Positions 25,742-27,935 of a stretch of 64,000 nt of DNA are shown in pieces. The first letter of the stretch is position 1. The number at the start of each line of letters is the position of its first letter. The translations under genes were made by a program, and so were the position numbers. This stretch comes from the human T2T-CHM13v2.0 reference genome, Homo sapiens: positions 29,664,001 through 29,728,000 of the forward strand of contig CP068257.2 of NCBI GenBank assembly GCA_009914755.4, written 5' to 3'. A model generated the notes under the pieces. That model was not told the origin of the DNA. It saw only the letters and a program-made list of their open reading frames with translations, and ran no database searches.

Positions 25742-26683
25742 CCAACTCAGCAGAGAAAGAAATAAAAATCTAGAAAGAAATCATCTAAATAGGAATAGTG
25801 AATACCTTTGATAGTTTTGATTGCCATCTTTTTGCTTAGCCATATATTCTAGTGTTCCTATAATGAATATGCATGATTATCTAAGAATATCATATGCAAA
25901 AAGGAAAGAAAATACTAGCTTGGAGTCCAGCTTCTCCCAAGTCTCCTTGCTCCTTCTTCTCCTCCTGGACCACAGTCTTCCCTCTCACTCTGTGTGTTGC
26001 ATCTGCCTCATAATGATGGGGAGGACAATTCTAGCTCGTATTCACAAAGGTGTACCTGTGGAGAGCACTCCTCTAAGTCATGACACACGTAAATTCATGT
26101 CCTACTCACGATACCTCTATGGGTGGGGGGGGGTGCCATCATCTGCCATCTTATAGGGGAAGGAACTGAAGCCTGGAGAATGACAGCAACTTGCCCCCTG
26201 GGCACCCTGCTCGCCTGTGACAGCCCTGGCTTCAAACCCACACTGAATCCTGAACCCAGTCTCTTGGCCTCAACAACCTGGCCCCTCCTGTGGGTGTTTC
26301 TACTTTTGCCACTGCCTGTCTCTGTGTCACGATGCATTGACTTTTCTGTCACCTCCGCCACACTGTGAAGCAGGGGCTGTGGCCCTACCCGAAACAGCTA
26401 ACCCACAGTCTGTCCACTGAATTGAGTTATGGCTGAATATTAGGTCCCAAACGCAATGACATTTTAAACCTATCTACACATGCAATTGTATTTCTATTTC
26501 CACAAGGGGGTCAAGCAACCACTGGTCACTTCAGCCAGGCGGGGCCCACTTCATGGTTTTCCCACAGAACTCCCGCAGGTGAGACAAAGCGCCCCTCAGG
26601 GAACTCGGTTCCTTGGTGGAGTCCATGGTAGAACGCTGTAGGTGCACTTCAGGGCTCCACAGCCAAAGTAAAGAAAGATGAGA

Positions 26684-26985
26684 GGCCGGGCGCAGTGGCT
26701 CACGCCTGTAATCCCAGCATTTTGGGAGGCTGAGGCATGTGGATCATGAGGTCAAGAGATCGAGACCATCCTGGCCAACATGGTGAAACCCTGTCTCTAC
26801 TAAAAATACAAAAATTAGCAGGTCATGGTGGTGCCCGCCTGTAGTCCCAGCTACTCGGGAGGCTGAGGCAGGAGAATTGCTTGAACCCGGGAGGCGGAGC
26901 TTGCAGTGAGCCAAGATCACGCCACTGTACTCCAGCCTGGGCAACAGAGCGAGACTTTGATTCAAAAAAAAAAAAAAGAAAGAAA
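26684..26985 (+). mobile_element. AluY-like element (sense)
   Basis: 'ggccgggcgcagtggctcacgcctgtaatcccagcattttgggaggctgaggcatgtggatcatgaggtcaagagatcgagaccatcctggccaacatggtgaaaccctgtctc...ggagcttgcagtgagccaagatcacgcc'. Confidence 0.93.
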
Positions 26986-27100
26986 GTGCATGAAGCCATA
27001 AAAAAAGTGGTGCTAAACCAGTCTGAAAAGACTACACATTGTAGGATTCCAAGTATATGACGTTCCAGAAAAAACAAAACTATTTAGAGACATCAGTGGT

Positions 27101-27700
27101 AGGCCAGGCGCAGTGGCTCATGCCTGTAATCCCAGCCACTTTGGGAGGCCAACGTGGGCGAATCACTTCAGCCCTGGAGTTCAAGACCAACCTGGCACCA
27201 TCTCTATAAAAAATTTAAAAATTAGGCTGGGTGTGATGGCTCATGCCTGTAACCCCAGCACTTTGGGAGGCCGAGGCGGGTGGATCACCTGAGGTCAGGA
27301 GTTTGAGACCAGCCTGGCCAACATGACAAAACCCCGTCTCTACTAAAAATAAAAAAATTAGCTGGGTATGGTGGTGCGGGCCTGTAATCCCAGCTACTTG
27401 GGAGGCTAAGGCAGGAGAATCGCTAGAGCCCGGGAGGCAGAGGTTGCAGTGAGCCGGGATCGCGCCATTGCACTCCAGTCTGGGTGACAGAGTGGGACTC
27501 TGTCTCCAAAAAGAAACACACAAAAATTTAAAAATTAGCTGGGTGTGGTGGTGTGTGCTTGTAGTCCCAGCTACTCAGGTGGCTGAGGTGGGAGGATCAC
27601 TGGAACCCAGGAGTTCAAGGCTACAGTGAGCTATGATCACACCACTTCATTCCAGCCTGGGCAACGGAGCAAGACCCTGTCTCAAAAAAAAAAAAAAAAA
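27101..27700 (+). mobile_element. Older Alu (sense) split into 27101-27221 and 27522-27700 by a nested Alu
   Basis: The left monomer 'ggtaggccaggcgcagtggctcatgcctgtaatcccagccactttgggaggccaacgtggg...' is followed by 'aaaaatttaaaaatt'. The right monomer resumes as 'agctgggtgtggtggtgtgtgcttgtagtcccagctactcaggtggctgaggtgggaggatcactggaacccaggagttcaaggctacagtgagctatgatc' followed by A17. Confidence 0.85.
27222..27520 (+). mobile_element. Alu (S-type, sense) inserted in the linker of the older Alu, with a 15-bp TSD
   Basis: 'aggctgggtgtgatggctcatgcctgtaaccccagcactttgggaggccgaggcgggtggatcacctgaggtcaggagtttgagaccagcctggcc...' TSD 'aaaaatttaaaaatt' at 27207-27221 and 27522-27536. Confidence 0.93.
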
Positions 27701-27935
27701 TCAGTGACTTCCTGGAATTAGCAAGAAAAGGGAAGAATTGGTGGAGCACAGAGGATTTTAGGGCAGTGAAACTATTCTGAATGATACTGTAATGGTGGGT
27801 ACAGTAATGGCCGCTTGACCCCCTTAAAAACAGAACAATGACTGCGTGCGTGGAAAAGTTTAATTCATTGCGTTTGGGACCCAACATTCAACAATAACTC
27901 AATTCAGTGGACAGACTGTGGGTGGATACTGTAAA

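What the first reader, a model, noticed from the sequence alone, without database searches (positions are those of the whole stretch)
26400..27925. Second inverted-repeat pair (~130-bp arms) bracketing a 1.27-kb Alu pile-up
'cccacagtctgtccactgaattgagttatggctgaatattaggtcccaaacgcaatga…aagggggtcaagcaaccactggtca' (26400-26530) is the reverse complement of 27797-27925 at about 88-90% identity in the aligned blocks. All the sequence between the arms that I can classify is Alu (26684-26985, 27101-27700, 27222-27520). A partial Alu 3' end (27936-28038) abuts the right arm. Either an older palindromic element or hairpin was a preferred landing pad for three independent Alu insertions, or an inverted duplication occurred. 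Alu-filled long inverted repeats are candidate sites for stalled replication and Alu-mediated rearrangement.
Basis: seen in the sequence. Interest (0 to 1): 0.5.

Follow-up and report, generated by a model that had tools for sequence, protein, structure and literature searches.

The report
Old local inverted duplication beside Alus
A real but ordinary pair of about 120-bp inverted repeats in human-type DNA: the right copy looks like an old reverse-complement copy of nearby sequence pasted into an L1 element, the Alus between the copies are routine later insertions, and I see no evidence of function or fragility.

Summary
The inverted repeat is real. Positions 26401-26521 pair with 27808-27923 (E 5e-25). 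The outer 59 bp are 93% complementary. Overall identity is 87.6% without gaps and 79.8% with gaps. Homology stops on all four sides.

The 1,286-bp interior is not only Alu:
- 70% is three same-strand Alus: an AluS, and an AluJ carrying a nested AluSx with a perfect 16-bp target duplication.
- The remainder is an L1 ORF2-end/3'UTR fragment plus about 144 bp that I could not assign.

The L1 has no 3' end or poly(A) and stops exactly at the right arm. The L1 10-mer GATACTGTAA occurs only twice in the 64 kb, once on each side of the right arm (P about 0.005). The right arm therefore looks like an insertion into the L1, not one terminus of an element that contains the L1. No target-site duplication brackets the whole structure. 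The two arms are about as diverged as the AluS copies and less diverged than the enclosed AluJ.

Best reading (about 0.6): an old local template-switch or templated-repair event copied the left arm in reverse complement into the L1. A decayed DNA-transposon terminal-repeat pair is the main rival (about 0.15). Dfam and orthologue checks were not possible with these tools. The finding is ordinary and of low interest.

The parts
26401..26521 (+). Left arm, the inferred source copy. It lies in otherwise unassigned sequence about 75 bp downstream of a MIR (about 26130-26325).
   Evidence: No significant direct repeat flanks it (read). Rfam finds nothing here.
26522..26665 (.). Unassigned sequence between the left arm and the first detectable L1 homology. 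It has no counterpart next to the right arm.
   Evidence: inner flanks score 16, shuffle mean 16. (no significant match to L1).
26666..26683 (+). First piece of the L1 fragment (end of ORF2), cut off by the insertion of Alu1.
   Evidence: once Alu1 is removed, the alignment to a recalled L1 consensus runs across the junction (score 84, shuffle maximum 39).
26684..26985 (+). Alu1, a full-length AluS-type element with an A-tail. The A-rich target repeat AAAGAAAG lies on both sides.
   Evidence: 91% to recalled AluSx; non-CpG divergence 0.041. Flanks read.
26986..27098 (+). L1 fragment: last codons of ORF2 (translates to ...[20 protein letters not shown]) and the start of the 3'UTR.
27102..27699 (+). 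AluJ inserted in the L1 3'UTR. Target duplication ATCAGTG at 27092-27098 and 27700-27706. It is interrupted in its A-rich linker by Alu3.
   Evidence: 80% to recalled AluJo; non-CpG divergence 0.090. Duplication read.
27225..27521 (+). Alu3 (AluSx type), nested in the AluJ. It has a perfect 16-bp target duplication, AAAAATTTAAAAATTA, at 27209-27224 and 27522-27537.
   Evidence: non-CpG divergence 0.058.
27700..27803 (+). L1 3'UTR fragment. It ends abruptly at ...GATACTGTAATGGTGGGTACA, about 230 bp short of a normal L1 3' end and with no poly(A).
   Evidence: 27760-27803 matches the other L1 3' end in the window (33540-34100, minus strand) at 82% over 44 bp, E 1e-6. In that copy the L1 continues TGTCATTATAC.... 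Also.
27783..27792 (+). First copy of GATACTGTAA, part of the L1 3'UTR.
   Evidence: only two occurrences in the 64-kb window.
27808..27923 (-). Right arm, the inferred reverse-complement copy of the left arm inserted in the L1 3'UTR. Weak homology may extend inward to 27804.
27925..27934 (+). Second copy of GATACTGTAA, one base beyond the outer end of the right arm. It is the start of a flanking duplication of the L1 target and is cut off after 10-13 bp by the truncated Alu.
   Evidence: P(exact match of 10 or more by chance to 720 bp of local non-Alu sequence, both strands) = 0.0045. It matches the local L1 copy 10/10 but the other L1 in the window only 8/10.
27935..28048 (+). 5'-truncated AluS (consensus positions about 189-289 plus A-tail) with no recognisable target-site duplication. 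I read it as the other side of a deletion junction.
   Evidence: Flanks read.

Best explanation
The structure is the decayed scar of a local rearrangement. It is not a mobile element and not a functional hairpin.

**Proposed history**
1. An old 5'-truncated L1 (end of ORF2 plus 3'UTR, + strand) lay about 140 bp downstream of the sequence that is now the left arm. An AluJ had already inserted into that L1.
2. Around the time AluS elements were active, DNA synthesis broke off inside the L1 3'UTR after ...GGTGGGTACA (27803).
3. Synthesis switched to the opposite strand about 0.4-1.3 kb upstream and copied about 120 nt of it (26526 back to 26401). This laid down the reverse complement that is now the right arm.
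4. Synthesis then returned to the L1 about 21 bp behind the point where it had left (at GATACTGTAA, 27783).

In the 'four-point' description of template switching (PMC5453318) the switch points lie in the order 3-2-4-1. That order yields an inverted copy flanked by a short direct duplication of the target.

**The remaining junction.** The rest of the L1 3' end and the 5' two-thirds of a downstream AluS are missing. They were lost either in the same multi-step event or in a later deletion that joined GATACTGTAA to Alu position about 189.

**The Alus.** The AluS copies between the arms are ordinary L1-mediated insertions into A-rich targets.

**What is shown:** the anatomy, the junction sequences, the 10-mer duplication and the relative divergences.

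**What is inferred:** the direction of copying (left to right), the mechanism (replicative template switch versus fold-back or templated break repair), and whether there was one event or two.
For: 1. The inverted repeat is real, and it is the only inverted homology in the region.
2. The L1 between the arms ends at the right arm with no 3' end or poly(A). The other L1 in the window shows what should follow.
3. GATACTGTAA occurs only at 27783 and 27925 in the 64 kb. The first copy is followed by 11 more bases of L1 and then the arm. The second copy follows the arm by one base. The chance of a 10-mer match or longer is 0.0045. The right arm is therefore an insertion into the L1 with a flanking target duplication, and that is incompatible with it being the terminus of an element that contains the L1.
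4. No TA, TTAA, 3-, 5-, 8- or 9-10-bp direct repeat brackets the whole structure (read).
5. The L1 does not abut the left arm. About 144 bp of unrelated sequence (26522-26665) lies between them, with no mirror copy on the right.
6. Non-CpG divergence per lineage is 0.056 for the arms, 0.041-0.058 for the AluS copies and 0.090 for the enclosed AluJ. The arm split looks AluS-aged and younger than the L1 and AluJ it brackets.
7. The adjoining Alu is 5'-truncated and has no target duplication, as expected at a deletion junction.
8. The junctions show only 1-2 bp of microhomology (CA at the L1/arm junction), typical of end-joining or template-switch junctions (read).
9. No other copy of the arm was found in the window, and there is no Rfam family in the arms.
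Against: - I could not run RepeatMasker/Dfam or search a mammalian genome, so I cannot exclude that the arm belongs to a dispersed repeat family.
- Differences between the arms are concentrated in the inner half: 10 substitutions plus all 5 indels there, against 4 substitutions in the outer 59 bp. For substitutions alone Fisher P = 0.085. Well-matched ends with a poorer subterminal match is also what transposon terminal repeats look like.
- The model needs three junctions, meaning one complex event or two separate events.
- A 120-nt copy taken from 0.4 kb or more away is larger and longer-range than the short template switches catalogued in PMC5453318.
- The clock argument is weak. Whether the arms are really younger than the AluJ has P of only about 0.08 by my own normal approximation from the counts, and the Alu and L1 consensus sequences were recalled from memory.
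- I noticed the 10-mer after inspecting many small similarities, so its nominal P value overstates its weight.
Confidence: 0.6

Rival explanations
1. The arms are the terminal inverted repeats (or the two halves) of an old non-autonomous DNA transposon or palindromic MITE. An L1 and then Alus inserted into it. A later deletion removed the L1 3' end together with the inner part of the right half, so the right arm now abuts the L1.
For: - The outer ends of the homology are sharp, and the outer 59 bp match best (93%), with poorer subterminal matching.
- The terminus CCCACAG.../...CTGTGGG preceded by CTAA is loosely piggyBac-like (TTAA target plus CCC...GGG ends). The motif CAGTCTGTCCA loosely resembles hAT ends. 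Both comparisons are from my own recollection of those families.
- A second, unrelated non-Alu inverted pair with an Alu in its spacer lies at 40900-41772, so structures of this type recur in the window.
- A deletion reaching into the right half would by itself set where arm homology ends, so no coincidence of boundaries is needed.
Against: - No target-site duplication of any standard length brackets the structure. For TTAA the left flank matches 3/4 and the right 2/4. For an 8-bp hAT duplication the match is 1/8. For 9-10 bp it is 3-4/10 (read).
- L1-derived GATACTGTAA lies outside the right arm, which this model must call coincidence (P about 0.005).
- An element older than the L1 and AluJ it contains should have arms at least about 0.18 apart at non-CpG sites, even if they were identical at birth. 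The observed distance is 0.113.
- The model needs an extra deletion.
- No second copy was found in the window.
Confidence: 0.15
2. The arms are two independent, oppositely oriented copies or fragments of some unrecognised interspersed repeat of about 120 bp. The right one happened to land in the L1 3'UTR.
For: - Both arms begin and end at the same positions relative to each other, as two full-length copies of a short element would.
- The right arm is flanked by a target duplication.
Against: - The flanking duplication is not adjacent to the arm on the inner side. Eleven bases of continuing L1 lie between them. From my own calculation, the chance that an insert starts with a 10/11 match to L1 is about 1e-5.
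- A 21-bp duplication would suggest L1-mediated retroposition, but neither arm has an A-tail on either strand.
- The left arm has no flanking duplication.
- No Rfam small-RNA family matches the arms.
- There is no third copy in the window. Exact 19-20-mer scans of three public collections found none either, but those collections evidently lack human DNA.
- Two copies 1.3 kb apart in 64 kb would be an unlikely coincidence for a rare family.
Confidence: 0.1
3. The L1 fragment is an endonuclease-independent L1 insertion that patched a double-strand break near the centre of a pre-existing palindrome. That would explain why it lacks a poly(A) and a target duplication.
For: - The L1 fragment is truncated at both ends and has no poly(A).
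- From my knowledge of the literature, endonuclease-independent L1 insertions have these properties, and palindrome centres are break-prone.
Against: - The insertion is not central. About 144 bp of unmatched sequence separates the L1 from the left arm, while the right arm abuts the L1 directly.
- The L1-derived 10-mer outside the right arm is unexplained.
- The arms look younger than the AluJ nested in the L1.
Confidence: 0.05

Closest known systems
Template-switch mutations that create inverted copies: the four-point model of Löytynoja & Goldman 2017 (PMC5453318); also PMC7954356, and FoSTeS/MMBIR and serial replication slippage as discussed in those papers
   Same: - A stretch of nearby sequence is copied in reverse complement and replaces or extends the sequence at the departure point.
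- Returning upstream of the departure point leaves a short direct duplication. Here that is GATACTGTAA..., at 27783 and 27925.
- The junctions have 1-2 bp of microhomology.
- The product is an inverted repeat that could form a hairpin.
   Different: - The copied stretch (about 120 nt) is much larger, and the distance to the template (at least 0.4 kb before the later Alus, 1.3 kb now) much longer, than the short-range events that model was built for.
- A further junction (L1 to mid-Alu) is needed.
- The event is tens of millions of years old and is inferred from one genome, without the ancestral state.
Non-autonomous DNA transposons / MITEs of the human genome (MER families; hAT, Tc1/mariner, piggyBac, MuDR)
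   Same: - A pair of inverted repeats with sharp outer ends that match best at the termini.
- The interior carries later retroelement insertions.
   Different: - No target-site duplication.
- The interior is an L1 fragment lacking its 3' end, not transposon sequence.
- L1 target sequence is duplicated around the right arm alone.
- The arms appear younger than the elements they enclose.
- Family membership could not be tested because no Dfam or Repbase library was available.
L1 twin-priming inversions
   Same: An inverted segment lies at the 5' side of a 5'-truncated L1.
   Different: - The arm shows no significant similarity to L1 3' ends: no hit with E below 1 to the in-window L1 copy, and scores within the shuffle range against recalled consensus sequences.
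- Twin priming inverts upstream L1 sequence. It does not duplicate non-L1 sequence.
- This L1 lacks the poly(A) end that twin priming retains.

Membership tests
DNA transposon / MITE (terminal inverted repeat element) | Terminal inverted repeats with defined ends | tested here: met
   Inverted homology of 116-121 bp with a sharp outer boundary. A weak 6-7-bp extension with indels beyond the ends is within chance.
DNA transposon / MITE (terminal inverted repeat element) | Target-site duplication of superfamily-specific length directly flanking both termini | tested here: not met
   The flanks are ...GAAACAGCTA | arm ... arm | GGATACTGTA.... TA: present on the left only. TTAA: 3/4 and 2/4. 8 bp from a CAG start: 1/8. 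9-10 bp: 3-4/10. Decay could hide a short duplication, so this counts against membership but does not exclude it.
DNA transposon / MITE (terminal inverted repeat element) | Multiple dispersed copies sharing the same termini (match to a Dfam or Repbase consensus) | not testable with these tools
   No other copy in the 64-kb window. Exact 19-20-mer scans of the metagenome, GTDB and IMG/VR collections gave 0, 0 and 1 chance hit. Those collections do not contain this human locus, so they are uninformative.
DNA transposon / MITE (terminal inverted repeat element) | Both termini arrived together, so they are older than anything inserted between them | tested here: inconclusive
   The right arm lies inside the L1 3'UTR between duplicated L1 10-mers. 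Arm divergence per lineage (0.056) is below that of the enclosed AluJ (0.090), but P is only about 0.08 (my approximation from the counts).
Template-switch / templated-insertion inverted duplication | The inserted stretch is the reverse complement of nearby sequence on the same chromosome | tested here: met
   27808-27923 is the reverse complement of 26401-26521, 87.6% identical without gaps. It is the only copy in the window.
Template-switch / templated-insertion inverted duplication | The insertion interrupts otherwise colinear sequence, with a short duplication or deletion at the return point and microhomology at the junctions | tested here: met
   The L1 3'UTR runs up to 27803. GATACTGTAA is repeated at 27783 and 27925. 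There is 2 bp (CA) of microhomology at the L1/arm junction. Colinearity cannot be followed beyond the second 10-mer because the sequence joins a truncated Alu.
Template-switch / templated-insertion inverted duplication | The ancestral state lacks the copy (the source alone is present in outgroups) | not testable with these tools
   No primate or mammalian genome could be reached. Exact-protein look-ups of ORFs spanning the arms found nothing.
Known structured RNA gene or hairpin (Rfam) | Match to a curated covariance model | tested here: not met
   cmscan at E<=10 over 25500-29000 gave only Alu-derived hits (SRP, mir-1268, mir-3135 and similar) and weak chance-level matches, none within the arms. 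There are no tRNAs.

The most novel reading that the evidence does not exclude
The locus may be a fossil of an unusually large and long-range template-switch event: about 120 nt copied in reverse complement from at least 0.4 kb away, with a 21-bp return duplication. It would have become fixed in the primate lineage around the time of AluS activity. Such an event would sit between the short-range switches catalogued in primate genomes and the kilobase-scale FoSTeS/MMBIR rearrangements seen in disease. A less likely alternative is that the arms are the ends of a DNA-transposon family with about 120-bp terminal repeats that I cannot name.
Probability: 0.5. Interest if true: 0.2.

Novelty: new member of a known kind. 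Interest (0 to 1): 0.12.

Why it matters
It matters little. If the template-switch reading is right, the locus is one more example of a known mutational process, notable only for the size of the copy. Together with outgroup genomes it could serve as a worked example of how inverted repeats arise de novo in primate DNA. It gives no reason to expect present-day fragility, regulatory function or a new kind of mobile element. The practical lesson for the scan is that an inverted repeat bracketing Alus is not in itself evidence of a landing pad. The non-Alu filler between the arms (here an L1 fragment) and the junctions carry the information.

Tried and rejected
1. **Chance.** Rejected.
2. **Known RNA family or tRNA in the arms.** None found.
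3. **Arms as part of the L1 3'UTR, or a twin-priming inversion.** There is no significant similarity to the in-window L1 3' end or to two L1 3' ends recalled from memory. The best nominal P was about 0.01 over eight tests and the motifs were inconsistent.
4. **Arms as coding sequence.** Both arms have a short open frame beginning LGPKRN. There are no Pfam hits, and the frames diverge after a 2-bp indel.
5. **Finding other copies or orthologues.**
   - Exact 19-20-mer scans of JGI metagenomes gave 0 hits and GTDB genomes gave 0.
   - IMG/VR gave one hit whose flanks do not match, so it is a chance hit.
   - Exact look-ups of the 88-aa and 53-aa ORFs spanning the arms found nothing on record.
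   - A literature search for arm-derived 14-16-mers returned only unrelated primers.
6. **Locating a gene exon in the window to reach orthologous loci.** ORFs of 90 aa or more are nearly all Alu-derived or look non-coding. I prepared a six-frame screen against PDB sequences but dropped it. Any gene here would probably exceed the 100-kb limit for DNA retrieval, so the expected gain was too small.
7. **Inversion by staggered breaks.** Rejected. The second copy of the L1 10-mer is direct and lies beside the right arm, not inverted beside the left arm.
8. **A 10-bp target duplication around a 132-bp mobile insert.** Rejected. That insert would begin with 11 bases that continue the L1.
9. **Alus preferentially targeting the interior.** Not significant.
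Full report
**Context**

The window is human-type DNA. The region is full of Alu elements (Rfam SRP-derived hits; BLAST with a recalled AluSx consensus). It also holds MIR-like sequence at about 26130-26325 and 28085-28300, both on the + strand (read against the MIR consensus as I remember it). An L1 3' end lies at 33540-34100 on the minus strand.

Yes.
- The repeat finder reports a single inverted pair in 26000-28400: 26401-26459 against 27865-27923, 59 nt, 93% complementary.
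- A minus-strand blastn self-comparison of 26300-28100 returns only 26401-26516 against 27923-27813, 80.2% over 116 columns, E 5e-25.
- Smith-Waterman scores 139, against a mean of 19 and a maximum of 34 in 500 shuffles.
- A global alignment of 26401-26521 with the reverse complement of 27808-27923 has 99 matches, 14 mismatches and 11 gap columns. That is 87.6% identity without gaps and 79.8% with them.
- Inverted homology does not continue into the outer flanks (score 19, shuffle mean 17) or the inner flanks (score 16, shuffle mean 16).

**What lies between the arms**

The interior spans 26522-27807, 1,286 bp, and contains 902 bp of Alu.

| Element | Coordinates | Type | Target duplication |
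|---|---|---|---|
| Alu1 | 26684-26985 | AluS-type, 91% to recalled AluSx | A-rich AAAGAAAG on both sides |
| Alu2 | 27102-27699 (split) | AluJ, 80% to recalled AluJo | ATCAGTG at 27092-27098 and 27700-27706 |
| Alu3 | 27225-27521 | AluSx-type, nested in the A-rich linker of Alu2 | Perfect 16 bp, AAAAATTTAAAAATTA, at 27209-27224 and 27522-27537 |

The remaining 384 bp are not Alu. With the Alus removed, 26666-26683 + 26986-27098 + 27700-27803 reads as the end of L1 ORF2 and the L1 3'UTR. The evidence is:
- A frame translates to ...[20 protein letters not shown], which resembles the ORF2 C-terminus.
- The stretch aligns to an L1 consensus that I recalled from memory, with scores of 78 and 84 against shuffle maxima of 40 and 39.
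- 27760-27803 matches the independent L1 3' end in the window at 82% over 44 bp, E 1e-6.

L1 homology becomes detectable only from about 26666. Positions 26522-26665 match neither L1 nor anything on the right-hand side.

**The informative junctions**

The L1 runs on the + strand and stops at ...GATACTGTAATGGTGGGTACA (27803). In the other L1 copy the sequence continues TGTCATTATAC... for about 230 bp. Here the right arm follows instead, and there is no poly(A).

One base beyond the outer end of the right arm comes GATACTGTAA again (27925-27934). This 10-mer occurs only at 27783 and 27925 in the whole window. A random 13-mer reaches an exact match of 10 or more to the local non-Alu sequence with probability 0.0045. 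The second copy matches the local L1 10/10 but the other L1 in the window only 8/10, so it is a local duplicate and not another L1 fragment.

The layout is therefore: L1...[GATACTGTAA]TGGTGGGTACA - right arm - G[GATACTGTAA] - Alu. Three things follow.
- The right arm is an insertion into the L1 3'UTR, flanked by a duplication of the L1 target.
- A strict 10-bp target duplication around a 132-bp mobile insert is excluded, because that insert would begin with 11 bases that continue the L1.
- The duplication is better read as up to 21 bp, with its second copy cut short.

What cuts it short is an AluS that starts at consensus position about 189 (27935) and has no target duplication. That is what a deletion junction looks like.

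**Explanation**

The simplest history that uses all these features is a local template switch, or a templated break repair. Synthesis left the L1 at 27803. It copied the opposite strand from about 26526 back to 26401, then returned to the L1 at 27783. In the four-point description of such events (PMC5453318) the points lie in the order 3-2-4-1. That order produces an inverted copy plus a short direct duplication.

Loss of the remaining L1 3' end and of the Alu 5' part belongs either to the same multi-step event or to a later deletion. Microhomology at the junctions is 1-2 bp. The left arm is the source: it shows no flanking duplication and lies in sequence that continues without a break on both sides.

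**Dating**

Divergence per lineage at non-CpG sites:

| Sequence | Divergence |
|---|---|
| Arms (11/105 pairwise, halved) | 0.056 |
| Enclosed AluJ | 0.090 |
| Nested AluSx | 0.058 |
| Alu1 | 0.041 |
| Truncated Alu (2/76) | 0.027 |

The arms therefore separated at roughly AluS age. That appears to be later than the AluJ, and hence later than the L1 the AluJ sits in. If the arms were the ends of an element older than that L1, they should be at least about 0.18 apart, but the observed distance is 0.113. The difference is only suggestive (P about 0.08 by my normal approximation from the counts). The consensus sequences were recalled from memory, not taken from a database.

**Rivals**

A decayed DNA transposon is the main alternative.
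- For it: the sharp outer ends, and the concentration of differences in the inner half of the arms (4 substitutions in the outer 59 bp against 10 substitutions and all 5 indels in the inner half). A deletion into the right half could explain why the L1 abuts the right arm.
- Against it: no target-site duplication of any standard length, the L1 10-mer lying outside the right arm, the clock, and the need for an extra deletion.

Two independent copies of an unknown short repeat, and an endonuclease-independent L1 patch at a palindrome centre, fit worse. Details are in the rivals section.

I could not run the decisive tests: a Dfam match, a genomic copy count, and outgroup orthologues. Exact-word scans of the available public collections found nothing relevant, and ORF look-ups found nothing. 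Those collections evidently do not hold this human locus.

- *Landing pad for Alus.* Not supported. The 5.5-kb neighbourhood outside the arms is already 38% Alu. Given that insertion density, 1.04 insertions are expected in the 384 bp of pre-Alu interior, and P(>=3) = 0.087. The targets are ordinary A-rich sites, one of them inside another Alu.
- *Fragility.* Joined by an artificial 5-nt loop, the arms would fold as single-stranded DNA at -83.8 kcal/mol (z = -17.9). The real spacer is 1,286 bp and the arms are only 80-88% identical. Distance and divergence both lower the ability of inverted repeats to cause rearrangements (abstract of PMC10164571). All the Alus here are in direct orientation.

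**Verdict**

This is a real inverted repeat and an ordinary kind of genomic scar. It is most likely an old local inverted duplication made by template switching (confidence about 0.6). No function is indicated, and interest is low.

Noticed in passing
window 40900-41080 and 41596-41772: A second non-Alu inverted-repeat pair, unrelated in sequence: 181-bp arms, 85.6% identity, E 3e-51. A minus-strand Alu (about 41205-41505) and a (TTA)n-type microsatellite (about 41170-41225) lie in its roughly 515-bp spacer. It could be a palindromic DNA-transposon relic. I saw no obvious target duplication on a quick look.
   Followed up: partly
window 33540-34100 (minus strand): An old L1 ORF2-end/3'UTR copy with an internal deletion relative to the fragment at 26986-27803. 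It is preceded by an Alu tail. I used it here as an independent L1 reference.
   Followed up: partly
window about 26130-26325 and about 28085-28300 (both + strand): Two separate MIR-like elements flank the structure. I recognised them by eye against the MIR consensus as I remember it and did not test them with a tool.
   Followed up: no
window 24387-29350: A dense Alu cluster: ten Alu copies in about 5 kb. Outside the arms the region is 38% Alu, against about 17.5% for the whole window. All but one copy (25040-25326) are on the + strand.
   Followed up: partly
window 26435-26629 (+) and 27621-27887 (-): Both arms carry a short open frame that begins in the same register (ILGPKRND... and MLGPKRNE...). 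There are no Pfam hits, and the frames diverge after a 2-bp indel, so I regard this as chance.
   Followed up: yes
window about 47300-48300: The six-frame translations here are rich in Pro/Arg/Gly/Ala, which suggests a GC-rich, possibly CpG-island-like stretch. I did not examine it.
   Followed up: no
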